In this document: positions 3,332 to 11,581 of the stretch, piece by piece
How positions within the stretch are numbered: the first letter of the stretch is position 1
Layout: every line of letters starts with the position of its first letter
IMG/VR virus record: IMGVR_UViG_648276671_000014
DNA length: 24,740 bases
Reading direction: 5' to 3' (one strand)
Source: a virus
Taxonomy: Duplodnaviria; Heunggongvirae; Uroviricota; Caudoviricetes
The notes under the pieces: model-generated
What the model was told of the DNA's origin: nothing
The model's input: the letters and a program-made list of their open reading frames with translations, nothing else
Databases searched by the model: none
Program-made: the position numbers and the translations under genes

Positions 3332-3673
3332 ATGGCAATTAATGGCGCTGCGGCGACTGTTCCATTAAGCCCCGGTGAACGCCTGAATGGACTTAATCAC
3401 ATTGCGGAATTAAGGGCGAAAGTATTTGGCCTGAATATTGAGTCAGAGCTTGAGCGGTTTATTAAAGATATGCGTGATCCACGGGATATCAATAACGAAC
3501 AAAATAAACGGGCACTGGCTGCTATATTCTTTATGGCAAAAATTCCAGCTGAACGTCATAGCATCAGCATTAATGAGCTGACCACTGACGAAAAGCGGGA
3601 GTTGATTAAAGCAATGAATCATTTTCGTGCAGTGGTGAGCTTATTTCCCAGACGGCTAACCATGCCGAATTAA
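3332..3673 (+). CDS. Hypothetical P2-like early-region protein (113 aa).
   Basis: ORF with an upstream GGGGGA. Conserved position in the early operon of P2-like prophages. Confidence 0.6.
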   Translation: MAINGAAATVPLSPGERLNGLNHIAELRAKVFGLNIESELERFIKDMRDPRDINNEQNKRALAAIFFMAKIPAERHSISINELTTDEKRELIKAMNHFRAVVSLFPRRLTMPN

Positions 3674-3740
3674 CCAACTAATGAAATTAATGGCGTAAAC
3701 CCGCCGGGTATCCCTTTATCTAAATTCAGGAGAATTGATT

Positions 3741-3974
3741 ATGCGTAATATTGAAACTCTCACGACTAAAACCGGACCGGATGATGCAGGGCTTAATATT
3801 TTACTGACAGAGGCTCGTCTGGAAGAACGCCGGGCAAGGGCTGAAGCAATGGCAGCTCGCCTTGATAGCCTGGCGTGTCATATCACATCCCGCCAGCTAA
3901 ACCACGTCGAAGCAGCAGAACTACTGCGTGTAACTGCTGAAGCAATCCAGAACGAAGCGCAGGAGATCCACTAA
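3741..3974 (+). CDS. Hypothetical early protein (77 aa, DUF2732-like). The ATG at 3741 is preferred over the TTG at 3735.
   Basis: AGGAG SD upstream. Coiled-coil-like, Ala/Arg-rich. Confidence 0.6.
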   Translation: MRNIETLTTKTGPDDAGLNILLTEARLEERRARAEAMAARLDSLACHITSRQLNHVEAAELLRVTAEAIQNEAQEIH

Positions 3975-4201
3975 TGGCTGATGCAATGGATCTCGTACAG
4001 CAGCGAGTTGAAGAAGAACGCCAACGTCATATCCGTGCTGCCCGTGCCAAAACACCGGGCGTGTCCCGCGTGCTTTGCGTTGAGTGTGAAGCGCCAATTC
4101 CGCCAGCACGCCGTCGTGCCATTCCGGGTGTGCAGCTTTGCATTACCTGTCAGGAAATCGCAGAGCTGAAAGGCAAACATTACAACGGAGGTGCTGTATG
4201 A
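3974..4201 (+). CDS. TraR/DksA-family C4 zinc-finger protein (P2 Orf82-like, 75 aa).
   Basis: CVECEAPIP...CITCQ is a CxxC-N17-CxxC motif typical of TraR/DksA. TAATG overlap with the upstream gene. AGGAG SD. Confidence 0.75.
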   Translation: MADAMDLVQQRVEEERQRHIRAARAKTPGVSRVLCVECEAPIPPARRRAIPGVQLCITCQEIAELKGKHYNGGAV

Positions 4202-5055
4202 GCACCATCCTGAAATGGGCGGGAAATAAAACCGCCATTATGTCCGAACTGAAAAAACACCTTCCTGCTGGCCCGCGACTGGTTGAACCTTTCGCGGGTT
4301 CCTGTGCTGTGATGATGGCGACGGATTACCCCAGCTATCTGGTTGCTGATATTAATCCTGATTTAATCAACCTCTATAAAAAGATTGCCGCTGATTGCGA
4401 AGCGTTTATATCTCGTGCCAGAGCTTTATTTGAGGAAGCAAACAGGGAGGTGGCTTATTACAACATAAGGCAGGAGTTTAACTGCTCAACTGAAATTACT
4501 GACTTCATGAAAGCAGTATATTTCCTGTATCTCAATCGTCACGGTTACCGTGGGTTATGTCGCTATAACAAGAGCGGGCATTTCAACATTCCCTACGGTA
4601 ATTATAAAAATCCGTATTTCCCTGAAAAAGAAATTCGCGCATTTGCAGAGAAAGCCCAGCGAGCAACGTTTATCTGCGCCAGCTTTGATGAAACGCTGGC
4701 GATGCTGCAGGTGGGGGATGTGGTGTATTGCGATCCGCCTTATGACGGTACGTTTTCCGGCTATCACACTGACGGCTTCACTGAAGATGACCAGTATCAC
4801 CTGGCATCTGTTCTTGAATATCGATCATCAGAAGGTCATCCAGTCATTGTTTCTAACAGTGACACATCCCTGATCCGTTCGCTGTATCGAAATTTCACTC
4901 ACCACTACATCAAGGCAAAACGCAGCATCGGCGTGTCGGCTGGCGAGAGTAAATCTGCAACAGAAATCATTGCTGTTTCCGGGGCGCGCTGCTGGGTGGG
5001 ATTTGATCCTTCGTGTGGCGTGGATAGTTCTGCTGTGTACGAGGTGCGTATATGA
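4198..5055 (+). CDS. dam: DNA adenine methyltransferase (Dam/D12-class N6A MTase, 285 aa from [11 protein letters not shown]).
   Basis: Motif I (KWAGNK...EPFAGS) and motif IV (DPPY) of Dam-family MTases. GGAGG SD. The stop codon overlaps the A start. Confidence 0.85.
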
Positions 5056-7466
5056 GTCATGACGATATGAGCAACTCTAGCGGCTTTAACGAGGCCGCTG
5101 CAGCATTTTCATGGAACGGCCCGAAAAAGGCCATTAACCCTTATCTGGACCCGGCGGAAGTTGCGCCGGAGTCTGCACTTTCAAACCTGATCACTCTGTA
5201 CGCTGCCGATAATGAGCAGGAACAGCTGCGCCGCGATGCACTGAGTGAGCAGGTCTGGGAGCGTTATTTCTTTAATGAATCTCGTGATCCTGTCCAGCGC
5301 GAAATGGAGCAGGATAAGCTCATTAGCCGGGCAAAGCTGGCGCATGAACAGCAGCGTTTTAACCCGGACATGGTCATTCTGGCGGACGTCAGCGCCCAGC
5401 CCACCCATATTAGCAAGCCGCTGATGCAACGTATCGAATACTTCAGCAGCCTGGGCAGGCCAAAGGCTTATTCCCGCTATTTGCGTGAGACGATTAAGCC
5501 ATGTCTGGAGCGACTGGATTGTGTACGTGACAGTCAGCTGTCTGCTTCTTTCCGTTTTATGGCAAGCCATCAAGGGCTGGAGGGCCTGCTGATCCTGCCT
5601 GAAATGAGTCAGGATCAGGTGAAACGCCTGTCCACCCTGGTAGCTGCGCATATGAGCATGTGCCTTGATGCAGCTTGTGGCGATTTGTATGCCACCGATG
5701 ACGTTAAGCCAGAAGAAATCCGCAAGACATGGGAAAAGGTGGCGGCGGAAACCCTGCGTCTGGATGTCATCCCACCTGCGTTTGAGCAACTCCGTCGGAA
5801 AAGAAACCGCCGTAAACCCGTGCCCTATGAACTCATTCCGGGTTCGCTGGCGCGTATGTTGTGCGCCGACTGGTGGTATCGGAAATTATGGAAGATGCGT
5901 TGCGAATGGCGGGAAGAGCAGTTGCGTGCTGTCTGCCTGGTCAGCAAAAAAGCATCTCCCTATGTCAGCTATGAAGCCGTGATGCATAAACGTGAGCAGC
6001 GCCGTAAGTCGCTGGAGTTTTTCCGTTCTCATGAACTGGTGAACGAAGACGGCGACACGCTGGACATGGAGGATGTGGTAAACGCCAGCAGCAGCAACCC
6101 TGCGCATCGCCGCAATGAGATGATGGCCTGTGTTAAAGGTCTGGAGCTTATCGCGGAAATGCGCGGTGACTGCGCCGTTTTCTACACTATCACCTGTCCG
6201 TCACGTTTCCATTCCACGCTCAACAACGGCAGACCCAACCCAACCTGGACAAATGCGACGGTAAGACAAAGCAGCGATTATCTGGTCGGCATGTTTGCTG
6301 CATTTCGTAAGGCAATGCACAAAACCGGGTTGCGCTGGTATGGCGTACGGGTGGCTGAGCCGCACCATGACGGTACTGTGCACTGGCATCTCATGTGCTT
6401 CATGCGTAAAAAAGACCGCCGCGCCATCACTGCATTACTGCGTAAGTTTGCCATCCGTGTAGACCGCGAGGAGCTGGGCAACAATACGGGGCCACGCTTT
6501 AAGTCTGAGCTGATTAACCCGCGCAAAGGAACACCGACAAGCTACATCGCGAAATACATCAGTAAGAACATTGACGGGCGTGGTCTGGCTGGCGAGATCA
6601 GCAAGGAAACGGGTAAATCCCTGCGTGATAACGCCGAATACGTCAATGCCTGGGCGTCTCTGCATCGTGTTCAGCAGTTCCGCTTCTTTGGTATTCCGGG
6701 ACGTCAGGCTTACCGTGAACTTCGCTTGCTGGCTGGTCAGGCGGCAAGGCAACAGGGTGACAAAAAAGCAGGTGCGCCGATACTGGATGACCCGCGCCTT
6801 GATGCCATCCTGGCTGCTGCTGATGCTGGTTGTTTTGCCACCTACATCATGAAGCAGGGCGGCGTACTGGTTCCCCGTAAATATCACCTTATCAGAACCG
6901 CTTATGAAATCAACGAAGAGCCGACCGCCTATGGCGATCACGGCATTCGTATTTATGGCATCTGGTCACCCATTGCAGAGGGCAAGATCTGCACTCATGC
7001 AGTGAAGTGGAAAATGGTTCGTAAGGCCGTTGACGTTCAGGAGGCGGTAGCCGACCAGGGCGCTTGCGCCCCTTGGACTCGTGGCAATAACTGTCCCCTT
7101 GCTGAAAATTTGAACCAACAAGGGAAAGACAAATCAGCTGATGGGGATACCAGGACGGACATTACCCGCATGGATGACAAGGAGTTGCACGATTACCTGC
7201 ACAGTATGAGCAAAAAAGAGCGCCGGGAACTGGCTGCAAGGTTACGCCTGGTGAAACCGAAACGGCGTAAAGACTACAAACAGCGAATTACAGACCATCA
7301 GCGACAGCGGCTCGTCTATGAACTGAAGTCCAGAGGATTTGATGGCAGCGAGAAAGAGGTCGATTTACTCCTTCGCGGCGGCAGTATTCCGTCAGGAGCA
7401 GGCCTGCGTATCTTCTATCGGAACCAGCGTTTGCAGGAAGATGATAAGTGGCGAAACCTGTATTAA
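5052..7466 (+). CDS. A: Replication initiation protein A (rolling-circle nicking endonuclease, 804 aa).
   Basis: Size and position match P2/186 gpA. The [11 protein letters not shown]-type motif and catalytic Tyr-containing region are present. Confidence 0.9.
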
Positions 7467-8322: not shown

Positions 8323-8538
8323 ATGTCAAGCATCGCCGCATTTAGCCTGGGTAACCCAGTTGAACGTCTGGCAAGGGTTCTTAAAGAGAACCAGGACAAA
8401 CTCAATCTTAGTAAAGATGGTTTTGTGTCCGTAGACTTGTCTAACAAAAGAGCAATGGATGCCATCAAGGCACAGATGGATAAGCTTGAAGGCATCAAAA
8501 CGAGCACTGTAAAAGAGAAAACTAATAGAACCAGATAA
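8323..8538 (+). CDS. Hypothetical small soluble protein (71 aa). First gene of a cargo operon.
   Basis: GGGGGAG SD 4 nt before the ATG. Its stop is coupled to the next start (TAATG). Confidence 0.55.
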   Translation: MSSIAAFSLGNPVERLARVLKENQDKLNLSKDGFVSVDLSNKRAMDAIKAQMDKLEGIKTSTVKEKTNRTR

Positions 8539-8738
8539 TGGCAACATTACTTTTAGCAGTGATTTTGGTTAGTGGTTTTATTTATGTAAACCTATCACTT
8601 TCAACAAGATACCGATATAAGCGTTCCAACGGCTGGGACGCTTATTTTTTGTGGCTGCCTGGGGTATCGTTTTTTTCTCCTTGGCGGTTTTTTCACCTTT
8701 ATTTTGAACGTCAGCGGAGGGTTTCGTTGGCTGGCTAA
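8538..8738 (+). CDS. Small membrane protein (66 aa, N-terminal TM helix). Possibly the N-terminal part of a larger frameshifted gene.
   Basis: Translational coupling (TAATG) with the upstream gene. Hydrophobic N-terminus LLLAVILVSGFIYV. Confidence 0.45.
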   Translation: MATLLLAVILVSGFIYVNLSLSTRYRYKRSNGWDAYFLWLPGVSFFSPWRFFHLYFERQRRVSLAG

Positions 8739-8772
8739 TGCCTTGAATCTAACACCTGACAGTTTTAATGGC

Positions 8773-9378
8773 ATGTTGTCTTCATCGAAAGACAAACTTC
8801 AAAGAATAAATGAAATCAAACAGATAGCATGGGTTATGATTTCAATTGTTCTCGCTGCGATTTCAGGTTTTGGAAATAAGTTACGCACATCACGTGGAGA
8901 TCGTCGCTGGGATGCCTTAGCTAAAGCTGTGGGTAATAACGCTTTCGAATCATTACTCATGGAAGCGTCCGCAAGACAGTTTCCGATCATAGCAACTCTG
9001 TCGTCTCGCAAAATCTATGTTGGTCTTGTTACTTGTCCGGCGTTAGAAAACGGGCTTTCAGAACACCTTGAACTTCTCCCGATGTTAAGCGGATATCGGG
9101 ATAAAGATGATCTAACGATTAGTATCACGACTAACTATCACCAACATTATCTTGATAGTGGTGTGATAAGTGGAATGTCTCGGCTTAATATCGAAGATTT
9201 CCGTGTGCTCATACCAAAAGATGAGGTTGAAACAATTTCGTTTTTTGATACTGAGACATATAACAAATTTAAAGAAAATGAAGCCAGGGATAGAAAGAAC
9301 TGTCGAAAGATTGGTAGTAAAAGTGCATCTTCGCGCAGCAAGCGTGCAGCAGATGCTGAGTCAAATGATCGTGCATGA
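8773..9378 (+). CDS. Hypothetical membrane-anchored protein (202 aa from the first ATG). The reading frame is open from 8590 with no SD, so it may be fused to the previous ORF by a +1 shift in T-runs.
   Basis: Long open frame with a TM segment (IAWVMISIVLAAISGF). Followed by a rho-independent terminator. AT-rich cargo. Confidence 0.45.
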   Translation: MLSSSKDKLQRINEIKQIAWVMISIVLAAISGFGNKLRTSRGDRRWDALAKAVGNNAFESLLMEASARQFPIIATLSSRKIYVGLVTCPALENGLSEHLELLPMLSGYRDKDDLTISITTNYHQHYLDSGVISGMSRLNIEDFRVLIPKDEVETISFFDTETYNKFKENEARDRKNCRKIGSKSASSRSKRAADAESNDRA

Positions 9379-9426
9379 CTATGCTGCATGAGATCGCATG
9401 ATCGTTTGAGGATCGTTTTTGCTAAG

Positions 9427-9451
9427 GCCCGCCAGAACTGGCGGGCTTTTG
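9427..9451 (+). terminator. Rho-independent terminator (GCCCGCC-AGAACT-GGCGGGC-TTTTG).
   Basis: Perfect 7-bp GC stem plus a T-run, read directly. Confidence 0.7.
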
Positions 9452-9496
9452 CGTAGATCATGCACCTGCATGAAAACTACTACATAAAGCGGGCAG

Positions 9497-9515: not shown

Positions 9516-9697
9516 GCGCGTAATAACTAATATTCCTATTGACTTTCTATGATGCAATAGCTAATTTATTTCTAGGCCTATAGTTTAATTTGGGAAAACG
9601 GCGGAGTATGATTTAGGTTATATATCCGTCATACCGGTTCGATTCCGGTTAGGCAAAGAGCATTTTAGAGTGTTCTTTGCCTAACAGGATACGTAAA

Positions 9698-10447
9698 ATG
9701 ACTGATGACGAGATTAAAAATATTTTCCATGCTCAAACTGATAATGTTAGAGAGCTTGAGAAAGTCTGGAAACAAATAGTCAAAGAAATTAATACTGCAT
9801 TACGAACAGATAATGCAGTCCAAGTTGCACTTAAAACCAAAATGCTAGGTTTGGTTTTTTGCGCTCTTGCCGAAGCTCAATTTTCAAAGTTGATCCACAC
9901 GCCCGGTCAATTTTCCCCTAATGAAATAGAACAGATTAAATATGCAGCTTCATCTAATGTCTCAGATGGATGGTTAAAGTGCATAAATTTGGCTACGAGA
10001 CGACTATCGAAAGGCACAAAGCATAATCATGTTCCTAATGTTATTCAGGAGCTTGAAAGACTAGTTGATGATTTTATAAAAGCGCCAAGTTTAATTAGAA
10101 ATAAAATTGCGCATGGACAATGGGTTGTCGCTCTTAATAGAAAGAATACACATGTGAACTCAGAAATGACACATACTTTGCGTAATTTGACAATAGTGGA
10201 ATTAACAAAGTTTAAAGATGCTTTCACGAGAATGTCGCGAATAGTCGAAGATATTATTAAATCTCCTAATAAAGCTCATTTGCGTGATTATTGGCCGCAG
10301 CTTGAAGAGTTTAGAGCAAAGCAAAAGGAAATGGATAGTTGGACTCTTGCTGAAAAAGTCTTCCAATTAAAAAAGAAATATAATTACTCATCTAATATGA
10401 GATGTGAATCATGCGGTCAGTTACATGTTGATAGAAATAAACAATGA
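9698..10447 (+). CDS. HEPN-like protein with an RNKIAHG (Rx4HG) motif, 249 aa. Candidate abortive-infection or toxin RNase.
   Basis: AT-rich gene between cos and Q. ATG at 9698 (the track ORF starts at a TTG at 9677). The Rx4-6H motif followed by G is characteristic of HEPN nucleases. Confidence 0.55.
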   Translation: MTDDEIKNIFHAQTDNVRELEKVWKQIVKEINTALRTDNAVQVALKTKMLGLVFCALAEAQFSKLIHTPGQFSPNEIEQIKYAASSNVSDGWLKCINLATRRLSKGTKHNHVPNVIQELERLVDDFIKAPSLIRNKIAHGQWVVALNRKNTHVNSEMTHTLRNLTIVELTKFKDAFTRMSRIVEDIIKSPNKAHLRDYWPQLEEFRAKQKEMDSWTLAEKVFQLKKKYNYSSNMRCESCGQLHVDRNKQ

Positions 10448-10537
10448 TGATTATTATTTTGTGACACTTTCAATATTTTAATGCTTTATATATTAGCAAT
10501 GGTCATTAACATGACCATTGCTATGTGACCTAATATA

Positions 10538-11581
10538 TTAGTTATCTTCTGTCCTGAGCGAGTAAAAGCTAAAACGGAGAATTTCTTCACCAAGCCAGTT
10601 ATTTAGTTCCTGTAAACGTTTCTGCAGTGACATTAGTTCATTGCGTACAAAAACGCGACTAGCTTTCTCCACATCCCCAAATCCCCCAACATTATTTGGC
10701 ATTATCCCCATCATCTGTGGCGGCACGCGGTGCGCTGCCATCATGTCATCCCGACTCACGTTCTTGATATTAAGAAATTCATCCTTCGCCGCGACTTCTG
10801 ACAATGGGATGATCTGAAGCCCGTCCTTTTTGCCGTTAGGCGAGTACATAAACAGGTTGCGGAAGTTGCCTGGACCTTTGGCGCTTTTCATCGCGTTGCG
10901 GAGGTTGTTCACATCTTCCTGGTTCTGCGCGGCATCGGTCATGTACATGATGAAGCCTGCATGGCTGCCGTTGATGTAATACTTACGGCGGAACAGCGTG
11001 GCAGACTCGTTGAGCAGGGCGGATGGAATGGCAGAAAGATAGCCGGGCAGGCCGTAGATCTCCTGGTTGATGTCCGGTTCCATCAGATGAAAAATGCTGC
11101 CTTTCGTGAACTGATACGGCTGGGTTGTCATACCGTATTGCACAAACCAGTAGGTATCCAGGTCTAACCCGCGTCGGGTGTATTTTGCCAGCGCAGGCTC
11201 AAGGGCGATAACTTCACCGAATCGGTTCGTGCGTTTCTCCAGGTAGGCGTTACCAAATACCAGATAGTCCTGCACAAAACGCGAAAAAGCCTGCTGGCTG
11301 AGCAGCGGATGAGGGATATAGGTACTGGTCAGAATGTTGCACTTTACTGCAATCGGGGAACTGTGATGCACGGCGGCGCGGAAGGTGCGCGCCAGTCCGT
11401 TAAAGCTGACGGGCGGCTCATACCAACGGTCCATCTGTACGCATTCCACATAGTCCAGCAGTTCACGGCGGTCCAGAACAGGAACGGGATCGCCGAAGCT
11501 GAATGCTTCGGCTGTAGTTTGACTTTTAAGCTGGATCTGTTTCGTCGCCGCAGCTCGGTTCTTCTTACTCTTTCCCATCAA
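10538..11581 (-). CDS. Q: Portal protein (gpQ-like, 347 aa).
   Basis: P2 gene order Q-P leftward, and size (P2 Q is 344 aa). Confidence 0.88.
   Translation of the reverse strand: MMGKSKKNRAAATKQIQLKSQTTAEAFSFGDPVPVLDRRELLDYVECVQMDRWYEPPVSFNGLARTFRAAVHHSSPIAVKCNILTSTYIPHPLLSQQAFSRFVQDYLVFGNAYLEKRTNRFGEVIALEPALAKYTRRGLDLDTYWFVQYGMTTQPYQFTKGSIFHLMEPDINQEIYGLPGYLSAIPSALLNESATLFRRKYYINGSHAGFIMYMTDAAQNQEDVNNLRNAMKSAKGPGNFRNLFMYSPNGKKDGLQIIPLSEVAAKDEFLNIKNVSRDDMMAAHRVPPQMMGIMPNNVGGFGDVEKASRVFVRNELMSLQKRLQELNNWLGEEILRFSFYSLRTEDN

What the first reader, a model, noticed from the sequence alone, without database searches (positions are those of the whole stretch)
9615..9690. tRNA-like T-arm fragment plus hairpin immediately upstream of the HEPN-like gene
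ACCGGTTCGATTCCGGT (9642-9658) is a canonical T-stem/T-loop (GGTTCGATTCC). It is followed by TTAGGCAAAGAG....TTCTTTGCCTAA, an 11-12-bp inverted repeat (about 9659-9685) that overlaps the RBS region of the downstream gene. No full cloverleaf can be folded upstream and the implied acceptor would start with U. It is therefore not a tRNA gene. It may be a tRNA-derived att/scar marking how the cargo was acquired, or a structured 5' leader regulating the toxin-like gene.
Basis: seen in the sequence. Interest (0 to 1): 0.33.

Follow-up and report, generated by a model that had tools for sequence, protein, structure and literature searches.

The report
tRNA-like RNA partnered with HEPN gene
The tRNA-looking stretch is not a scar: it is a complete tRNA-shaped RNA with a competing hairpin that sits directly in front of one family of predicted RNA-cutting (HEPN) proteins in many bacterial phyla, which points to an apparently undescribed RNA-controlled toxin or anti-phage module.

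Summary
The T-arm and the hairpin are real, but they lie 9 nt upstream of the stated coordinates. The claim that no cloverleaf folds upstream is wrong: Rfam's tRNA model matches 9576-9654 above its curated cut-off.

It is not a tRNA gene. The acceptor stem has 5 bp, there is no CCA, the 'anticodon' arm is a variable hairpin, and ARAGORN finds nothing.

Every homologue of the downstream 249-aa protein with upstream DNA available carries the same element on the same strand. These homologues carry an invariant RNKxAH (HEPN Rx4H) motif and come from about 10 phyla, prophages and defence islands. A search starting from the RNA recovered the protein in 69 of 83 metagenome hits.

Covariation supports the cloverleaf. 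It equally supports a mutually exclusive long hairpin that takes the acceptor 3' strand and reaches the ribosome-binding site. A conserved promoter places the transcription start at RNA position 1.

In this window, promoter, RNA and gene form a single cassette of about 1 kb in the variable cargo slot of a P2-like prophage.

Best reading: a type III-like (AbiF-like) toxin/defence module whose RNA partner mimics a tRNA and can switch between two folds. I found no description of it. The att-scar idea is rejected. The mechanism is inferred, not shown.

The parts
9539..9567 (+). Candidate sigma-70 promoter of the module: -35 TTGACT 9539-9544, 17-nt spacer, -10 TAATTT 9562-9567. The predicted start is at about A9574/G9575.
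   Evidence: Read from the sequence. The consensus scan did not call it because the -10 matches only 3 of 6 positions. In 63 distinct homologous upstream regions, a -10-like hexamer ends exactly 6 nt before RNA position 1 in 30. No other spacing reaches more than 9. TTGACA-like -35 boxes are common. The -35 is conserved in L085/L086.
9574..9656 (+). tRNA-like RNA. Acceptor 5' strand 9576-9580; D arm 9583-9599; variable 'anticodon' arm 9600-9630 (6-bp base; Rfam counts a 19-nt loop, which RNAfold pairs into a longer stem with a 4-nt loop); T arm 9633-9649; acceptor 3' strand 9650-9654, followed by AA.
   Evidence: Rfam RF00005, 30.7 bits against a gathering score of 29. Cloverleaf is the MFE structure. 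Own covariance model R1 scores 81.7 bits over 9574-9687. Covariation: 92.7% and 94.8% of cells paired, against 33-57% in slid controls, with 23 of 25 pairs showing compensatory changes.
9644..9689 (+). Long hairpin that competes with the cloverleaf. Its 5' arm is the T-arm 3' half plus the acceptor 3' strand plus AAAGAGCA. Its 3' arm is TGTTCTTTGCCTAAC plus AGGA.
   Evidence: Inverted repeat. It is the MFE structure of the full leader, -45 kcal/mol, z = -5.8. It is more stable than the cloverleaf by 9.2 kcal/mol here and by a mean of 11 kcal/mol in 55 of 55 homologues. Of its 15 pairs, 14 covary and 96-97% of cells are paired. This holds in an independent metagenome set where the extension pairs were not part of the alignment model.
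9686..9689 (+). Shine-Dalgarno AGGA, 8 nt before the ATG. In the long-hairpin fold, GGA pairs with UCC 9644-9646 of the T arm.
   Evidence: Across the family, the in-register continuation into the T loop is paired in 66% of cells against 16-54% in slid controls. For the window itself, the accessibility calculation is inconclusive.
9698..10447 (+). ORF of 249 aa, a predicted HEPN RNase. The invariant R134-N-K-I-A-H139 motif is encoded at 10097-10114.
9540..10570 (.). Cargo cassette of about 1 kb in the variable slot of a P2-like prophage, between the gpA/DinI side and the portal gene. It holds only the promoter, the RNA and the HEPN gene.
   Evidence: Backbone homology to more than 1,100 E. coli genomes and 56 phages stops at about 9524-9538 and resumes at about 10571-10583. 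GC content drops to 32-37%. A related Klebsiella phage carries a different 580-aa (1743-nt) gene in the same slot. gpA, DinI and portal assignments come.

Best explanation
The feature is the RNA half of a two-part module. A promoter-proximal tRNA-shaped RNA of about 80 nt starts at the first transcribed base. It is followed by a hairpin whose 3' arm can instead capture the acceptor 3' strand and part of the T arm. Together they form the 5' leader of a stand-alone HEPN ribonuclease gene.

Shown here:
- The RNA and the protein co-occur obligately, and the association holds in both search directions.
- Both RNA folds are maintained by compensatory changes.
- The module moves as one cassette into phage and defence-island hotspots.

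Inferred:
- The module works like a type III (AbiF/ToxIN-like) toxin-antitoxin or abortive-infection system.
- The tRNA mimic binds the HEPN enzyme as a pseudo-substrate and keeps it inactive. The enzyme's real targets are probably tRNAs or other cellular RNAs.
- The more stable long hairpin masks the ribosome-binding region and throttles translation, so that RNA is not outnumbered by protein.
- Infection would release the RNase, through transcription shut-off, RNA decay, or a factor that shifts the fold.
For: Co-occurrence:
- A T-arm motif lies 25-115 nt upstream, on the same strand, in 74 of 80 species-representative loci spanning Proteobacteria, Bacteroidota, Cyanobacteria, Acidobacteria, Myxococcota, Nitrospirota, Planctomycetes, Clostridiales and CPR.
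- The covariance model adds L069 and L070, a second tandem module in L059, and remote homologues of 19-29% identity in viral contigs.
- RNA-first scan: 69 of 83 metagenome matches have the HEPN gene within 1.1 kb downstream. The other 14 are mostly genuine tRNAs, plus a few contigs that end too soon downstream.

No other conserved partner: neighbouring genes differ in every context examined.

Structure: covariation supports both the cloverleaf and the alternative hairpin. The long hairpin is favoured energetically in 55 of 55 sequences.

Translation: the start codon lies a median of 11 nt after the hairpin. The unpaired probability of the SD region rises from 0.29 to 0.54 when the cloverleaf is forced.

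Promoter: the -10 box ends 6 nt before RNA position 1.

Context: P2 cargo hotspot, a lambdoid prophage beside an RT+ATPase pair, and a plasmid island.

Precedent: AbiF HEPN toxins are neutralised by a cis-encoded upstream ncRNA (PMC12373285, PMC12737573).
Against: - There are no experimental data on toxicity, defence, RNA-protein binding, transcript ends or processing.
- Unlike ToxI, the RNA is single-copy, and the window has no terminator between the RNA and the gene. An RNA antitoxin would therefore be made 1:1 with its mRNA.
- Class II RNAs lack the competing hairpin.
- For the window itself, SD accessibility did not rise in the model (0.34 to 0.29).
- Covariation cannot test T-loop/SD pairing because the T loop is invariant.
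Confidence: 0.5

Rival explanations
1. The leader is purely cis-regulatory. The tRNA-like fold is a handle for host tRNA machinery: 3' processing of CCA-less precursors by RNase BN/Z or RNase E, or chaperoning by TruB or TrmA. Alternatively it is a kinetic folding timer. Cutting after the discriminator (about 9655/9656) would remove the acceptor 3' strand from the mRNA and leave the ribosome-binding site open. Unprocessed transcripts would refold into the off-state hairpin. The RNA never touches the HEPN protein.
For: Two mutually exclusive folds are both under selection. The cloverleaf is transcribed first, and the long hairpin is about 11 kcal/mol more stable. The elbow nucleotides that tRNA enzymes recognise are invariant: U8, A14, GG in the D loop, GTTCRA in the T loop. 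There is no encoded CCA. The transcript starts at position 1, so no RNase P step is needed.
Against: A generic expression or processing element should also occur in front of other genes. The RNA-first scan found it only in front of this family. Two RNA classes that differ in sequence are both kept with the same protein family, which suggests a specific partnership. Class II has no switch hairpin.
Confidence: 0.25
2. The RNA is a cofactor or sensor of an active ribonucleoprotein, not an inhibitor. The HEPN dimer needs the tRNA-like scaffold to be active. Alternatively, a phage-encoded tRNA-binding, tRNA-repair or tRNA-modifying factor (or a phage tRNA) displaces or refolds the RNA and so triggers the nuclease or its translation.
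For: Association is strict down to 19-29% protein identity. The switch architecture is conserved. The distal 'anticodon' arm is hypervariable between close relatives while the rest of the RNA is identical, as might be expected of a surface under arms-race pressure.
Against: Many homologues have only a 3-5 nt loop on a short stem in that arm, so it cannot act as a guide in general. No trigger is known. This is entirely speculative.
Confidence: 0.15
3. It is a degenerate tRNA gene, or a tRNA-derived attachment-site scar left when the cargo was acquired.
For: Sequence similarity to real tRNAs: the T arm is identical to that of tRNA-Cys genes seen in metagenomes. One locus (L004) also has a genuine tRNA next to an integrase.
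Against: The fold is full length, with compensatory changes in every helix. It has its own promoter. It is present in all homologous loci whatever the context, at a conserved distance from the start codon. The 'anticodons' called by ARAGORN are random, and 58 of 81 elements are not called at all. No integrase or direct repeats flank the cassette in the window.
Confidence: 0.02

Closest known systems
AbiF (Abi_2) HEPN toxin with its cis-encoded ncRNA antitoxin (AbiFr / RCd22; Abiff motif): a type III-like TA and abortive-infection system, proposed ancestor of Cas13
   Same: A stand-alone HEPN RNase gene preceded on the same strand by a conserved structured ncRNA. It is carried by prophages and defence loci and has no protein antitoxin (PMC12373285, PMC12737573).
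   Different: The protein does not match Pfam Abi_2, and the RNA does not match the Abiff model or any Rfam family except tRNA. Here the RNA is a single tRNA mimic with a competing hairpin, not two abiF motifs. Neutralisation and processing have not been tested.
ToxIN / CptIN / TenpIN type III toxin-antitoxin systems
   Same: An endoribonuclease toxin controlled by an upstream RNA from the same promoter, with an anti-phage role (established knowledge).
   Different: Those antitoxins are tandem repeats processed by the toxin, with a terminator before the toxin gene. Here there is no tandem repeat, there is no terminator in the window, and the toxin fold is different.
tRNA-directed HEPN nucleases: HEPN-MNT toxins, and the anticodon nucleases PrrC and RloC
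   Different: They are controlled by proteins: MNT AMPylation, or EcoprrI with Stp. There is no sequence-level homology. The substrate of the present family is unknown.
tRNA (Rfam RF00005) and known bacterial tRNA mimics (YrlA Y RNA, tmRNA tRNA-like domain, thrS operator)
   Same: Cloverleaf with the canonical elbow nucleotides; scores above the Rfam tRNA cut-off. Like the thrS operator, it lies in the 5' UTR next to the ribosome-binding site (thrS comparison from my own knowledge).
   Different: The acceptor stem has 5 bp, there is no CCA, there is no 7-nt anticodon loop, and the 'anticodon' arm is variable. It does not match the YrlA or tmRNA models. It is tied to a nuclease gene.
Riboswitch and T-box style expression platforms
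   Same: Two mutually exclusive helices share one strand. One of them abuts or includes the Shine-Dalgarno sequence.
   Different: The 'aptamer' is itself a tRNA-like fold. No ligand is known. There is no terminator/antiterminator pair.

Membership tests
tRNA gene (RF00005) | Cloverleaf scoring at or above the Rfam gathering score | tested here: met
   30.7 bits against 29, at 9576-9654.
tRNA gene (RF00005) | 7-nt anticodon loop with a consistent anticodon, 7-bp acceptor stem, discriminator plus CCA (encoded or addable); recognised by a tRNA gene finder | tested here: not met
   The Rfam alignment shows 19 nt where the 7-nt anticodon loop should be. The acceptor stem has 5 bp, followed by AAAG. 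ARAGORN finds none in the window. Among homologues, 58 of 81 are not called and the rest get random or abnormal anticodons.
HEPN superfamily | Rx4-6H catalytic motif | tested here: met
   R134-N-K-I-A-H139 is invariant in 24 diverse homologues.
HEPN superfamily | All-alpha four-helix HEPN fold | tested here: inconclusive
   [not shown]
HEPN superfamily | Match to a curated HEPN profile above its cut-off | tested here: not met
   HEPN_MAE_28990 scores 14.3 bits against a cut-off of 26.8. AbiU2 and Swt1 HEPN models hit only a few members, weakly.
AbiF/Abi_2 plus Abiff RNA | Abi_2 protein domain and Abiff RNA motif | tested here: not met
   No Abi_2 hit. No Rfam family other than tRNA, even at E <= 10.
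Type III toxin-antitoxin | Upstream ncRNA on the same strand, co-transcribed with an RNase toxin gene, and no protein antitoxin | tested here: met
   The RNA ends 13 nt before the SD and start-codon region. A single promoter lies upstream. There is no conserved neighbouring gene.
Type III toxin-antitoxin | Tandemly repeated antitoxin RNA and an attenuating terminator before the toxin gene | tested here: not met
   No tandem repeats. No terminator-like site on the + strand between the RNA and the ORF.
Type III toxin-antitoxin | The RNA binds and neutralises the toxin; the toxin is growth-inhibitory | not testable with these tools
   This needs toxicity, rescue and binding assays.
Known anti-phage defence systems (PADLOC 2023, NCBIfam, PHROGs) | Match to a model of a named system | tested here: not met
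   PADLOC none; NCBIfam none; PHROG 12663 'unknown function'.
P2-like prophage cargo hotspot (the tin/old slot) | Variable insert flanked by conserved backbone between the replication-side genes and the portal gene | tested here: met
   Boundaries at about 9524-9538 and about 10571-10583. A related phage carries different cargo in the slot. Low GC content.
Integrase att site or tRNA 3' fragment scar | Partial tRNA (3' part) at an element boundary, with a direct repeat and an adjacent integrase | tested here: not met
   The fold is full length and lies inside the cassette. The integrase is 8 kb away at 1-1212. No direct-repeat partner was found.

The most novel reading that the evidence does not exclude
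The leader is a new kind of RNA switch whose sensing domain is a tRNA fold. It toggles between a tRNA mimic (ribosome-binding site open) and an extended hairpin (site closed). It would report the state of the cell's tRNA-handling machinery, or the arrival of a phage tRNA-binding, repair or processing factor. That signal would license production or release of a HEPN nuclease. This would be infection sensing through tRNA mimicry, not a simple RNA antitoxin.
Probability: 0.2. Interest if true: 0.9.

Novelty: new variant of a known kind. Interest (0 to 1): 0.75.

Why it matters
Stand-alone HEPN nucleases are common in defence islands, and how they are held in check is mostly unknown. This family has a control element that can be read from sequence: a tRNA mimic with a built-in alternative fold. 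The element is conserved across about 10 phyla and is small enough (about 1 kb) to test directly.

If the RNA is the antitoxin or the sensor, three things follow:
- RNA-controlled HEPN systems would extend beyond AbiF, the lineage proposed to have given rise to Cas13.
- tRNA mimicry would join the repertoire of phage-bacterium conflict, alongside tRNA-cleaving defences and phage tRNA counter-measures.
- A compact, natural two-state RNA device would become available.

There is also a practical point. Genome annotation will label these elements as odd or pseudo-tRNAs, or miss them, and will label the gene 'hypothetical protein'.

Tried and rejected
- ARAGORN on the window found nothing. On homologues it gave inconsistent calls, so the element is not a tRNA gene.
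- PADLOC and NCBIfam gave no hit.
- The cassette is absent from 5,426 complete E. coli genomes and from 50,697 phage records. Two distant plasmid homologues are annotated as hypothetical or not annotated at all.
- Guide RNA idea: the variable 'anticodon' arm cannot be a guide in general, because many homologues have only 3-5 nt loops there.
- Terminator idea: the hairpin is not an intrinsic terminator in the window, because no U-tract follows it.
- RNase P leader idea: unlikely, because the promoter places the start at position 1.
- SD masking in the window is not settled. The MFE structure and the inverted repeat pair GGA with UCC. The ensemble calculation shows no gain in accessibility when the cloverleaf is forced.
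- Eight literature searches and eight papers consulted (one by outline, seven by term search) turned up no description of a tRNA-like RNA linked to a HEPN gene. One catalogue of phage structured RNAs lists unnamed tRNA-like candidates that might overlap this element (PMC10690425).

Full report
**1. The observation.** ACCGGTTCGATTCCGGT occurs once in the window, at 9633-9649 (+). None is expected by chance, even with two mismatches allowed. The inverted repeat is larger than described. Its arms are 9644-9662 and 9671-9689, with a 17-bp core of 9648-9664 pairing with 9669-9685. Its 3' arm runs into the Shine-Dalgarno AGGA at 9686-9689, 8 nt before the ATG at 9698.

Rfam's tRNA model matches 9576-9654 at 30.7 bits against a gathering score of 29. 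The minimum free energy structure of 9574-9656 is a cloverleaf. ARAGORN finds no tRNA. The 'anticodon' position holds a long variable arm, and AAAG follows the acceptor instead of NCCA. This is a tRNA-like element, not a tRNA gene.

**2. Setting in the window.** The window is a P2-like prophage: integrase at 1-1212, gpA at 5052-7466, a DinI-like gene, and portal at 10538-11581. Similarity to the backbones of more than 1,100 E. coli genomes and 56 phages stops at about 9524-9538. It resumes at about 10571-10583. GC content falls to 32-37% in between. A related Klebsiella phage carries a different gene in the same slot.

The insert is therefore a cassette of about 1 kb. It holds a candidate promoter (TTGACT 9539-9544, 17-nt spacer, TAATTT 9562-9567), the tRNA-like RNA, the hairpin and one ORF.

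**3. The protein.** The 249-aa product has no above-threshold Pfam, PADLOC or NCBIfam match. Its only family match is PHROG 12663, of unknown function. Homologues of about 235 aa are widespread but rare. A search of 5.8 billion sequences found 160 clusters. Among 1.84 billion representatives there are 445 clusters at 50% identity.

**4. The RNA goes with the protein everywhere.** In 80 loci from species-representative genomes (32-75% protein identity, about 10 phyla), 74 have GGTTCRANTCC 25-115 nt upstream on the same strand. Most of the others are cut by contig ends. A covariance model built from 55 of these sequences (R1) gave four further results:
- It found the element in L069 and L070.
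- It found a second tandem module in L059, followed by a paralogous RNRIAHGQW protein.
- It found the element upstream of remote homologues (19-29% identity) in viral contigs.
- Its only hit in the window is 9574-9687.

The reverse test also holds. I scanned metagenomes with a pattern restricted to the D loop and T arm, which gave 83 loci. Of these, 69 encode the HEPN family within 1.1 kb downstream. The other 14 are mostly genuine tRNAs whose flank happened to complete the pattern, plus a few contigs that end too soon downstream.

Neighbouring genes are not conserved. Contexts include a lambdoid prophage next to an RT+ATPase pair, a locus beside a 645-aa RT and transposases, an IncFII plasmid island, and others. 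The RNA is thus the protein's only constant partner.

**5. RNA anatomy.** Class I, which includes the window, keeps the canonical elbow nucleotides: U8, A14, GG in the D loop and GTTCRA in the T loop. For the cloverleaf plus proximal hairpin, 92.7% of cells are paired, against 33-51% in slid controls, and 23 of 25 pairs show compensatory changes. On 65 distinct independent metagenome sequences the figure is 94.8%.

The acceptor stem has only 5 bp; positions 1-2 (GG) face AA. The 'anticodon' arm varies in length and sequence. ARAGORN's occasional calls give random anticodons.

Between the window and L085/L086, the proteins are 74% identical and both lie in P2-like phages. The RNA is identical except for the distal part of this arm, which is completely different.

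Class II has a different sequence, with a GGGGG/CCCCC acceptor that is again 5 bp, and it has no hairpin. It occurs in Bacteroidota, some Burkholderia, Pantoea, cyanobacteria and Planctomycetes.

A -10-like hexamer ends exactly 6 nt before RNA position 1 in 30 of 63 distinct upstream regions. The peak is sharp, and TTGACA-like -35 boxes are common. The RNA therefore begins at the transcription start, and no RNase P step is needed.

**6. The competing fold.** The acceptor 3' strand and the last two bases of the T stem are also complementary to the distal 3' arm of the hairpin. This 15-bp helix is paired in 96-97% of cells, and 14 of 15 pairs show compensatory changes. The same holds in the independent set, where the extension pairs were not part of the alignment model.

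The long hairpin is predicted to be more stable than the cloverleaf in 55 of 55 sequences, by a mean of 11 kcal/mol and by 9.2 kcal/mol in the window. In remote clades it takes in the whole 3' half of the T arm. One strand therefore has two selected partners. The RNA must either switch between folds or pass through them in sequence.

The start codon lies a median of 11 nt beyond the hairpin. In register, the Shine-Dalgarno GGA can pair with UUCC of the T loop and T stem, which is paired in 66% of cells against 16-54% in slid controls. The modelled unpaired probability of the Shine-Dalgarno region rises from 0.29 to 0.54 when the cloverleaf is forced, with an increase in 31 of 42 sequences. It does not rise in the window itself. 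Masking of the ribosome-binding site is therefore suggestive, not shown.

**7. Interpretation.** Three things are firmly shown. This is a conserved RNA-protein module. The RNA is a tRNA mimic with two alternative folds. The module is mobile cargo of phages and defence loci.

The mechanism is inferred. The closest precedent is AbiF, a HEPN toxin neutralised by a cis-encoded upstream ncRNA (PMC12373285, PMC12737573). I therefore favour a type III-like toxin/abortive-infection module, at about 0.5. In this reading the tRNA mimic occupies a tRNA-directed HEPN RNase, and the long hairpin limits translation so that the 1:1 cis arrangement does not leave protein in excess.

The rivals are:
- a purely cis-acting leader read by host tRNA-processing enzymes, or acting as a folding timer (0.25);
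- an RNA cofactor or sensor of an active ribonucleoprotein (0.15);

**8. Novelty.** The family is not in Rfam beyond the generic tRNA hit, and it is not in PADLOC or NCBIfam. Eight full-text searches and eight papers consulted (one by outline, seven by term search) found no description of a tRNA-like RNA tied to a HEPN gene. The library is incomplete, so prior description elsewhere cannot be excluded. I class it as a new variant of a known kind (RNA-controlled HEPN toxin). There is roughly a 0.2 chance that the tRNA-fold switch is a sensing device of a new type.

Noticed in passing
window 8538-9378 (+): Two overlapping ORFs, 8538-8738 and 8704-9378, match consecutive parts of the same PHROG (phrog_3630, profile positions 1-38 and 68-273). 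This looks like one backbone gene split by a frameshift: a pseudogene, a sequencing error or programmed frameshifting.
   Followed up: no
window 9425-9452 (+): GC-rich hairpin GGCCCGCCAGAACTGGCGGGC followed by TTTT, just upstream of the cassette. It is probably the intrinsic terminator of the preceding backbone operon, which would insulate the module's own promoter. The scan tool did not call it because it has only 4 T residues.
   Followed up: no
window 9563-9590 (+): An imperfect palindrome (AATTTATTTCTAGGCC / GGCCTATAGTTTAATT, centred on TAGGCCTA) overlaps the -10 box, the predicted start and the acceptor 5' strand. It could be an operator, or a coincidence of the acceptor sequence.
   Followed up: no
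L059 1881-4290 (Olleya namhaensis): Two modules in tandem: a class II RNA with its HEPN gene (1881-2546), then a class I-like RNA with hairpin (3392-3495) followed by a paralogous 257-aa HEPN gene (3517-4290).
   Followed up: partly
L085 3192-3305 and L086 2087-2200, compared with window 9574-9687: The distal part of the 'anticodon' arm is completely replaced between P2-like phages whose RNA is otherwise identical and whose proteins are 74% identical. This could reflect relaxed constraint or diversifying selection.
   Followed up: partly
[not shown]
   Followed up: no
L139 2314-6032 (-): Three weaker R1 hits (36-47 bits) lie within 4 kb of a metagenome contig that has no HEPN gene downstream. 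This is most likely an array of genuine tRNA genes.
   Followed up: no
L134, L165, L175 (metagenome): Genuine tRNA-Cys(GCA) genes share the exact class I T arm (CCCGGTTCGATTCCGGG) and a similar D stem. This hints that class I RNAs descend from a tRNA-Cys-like gene.
   Followed up: no
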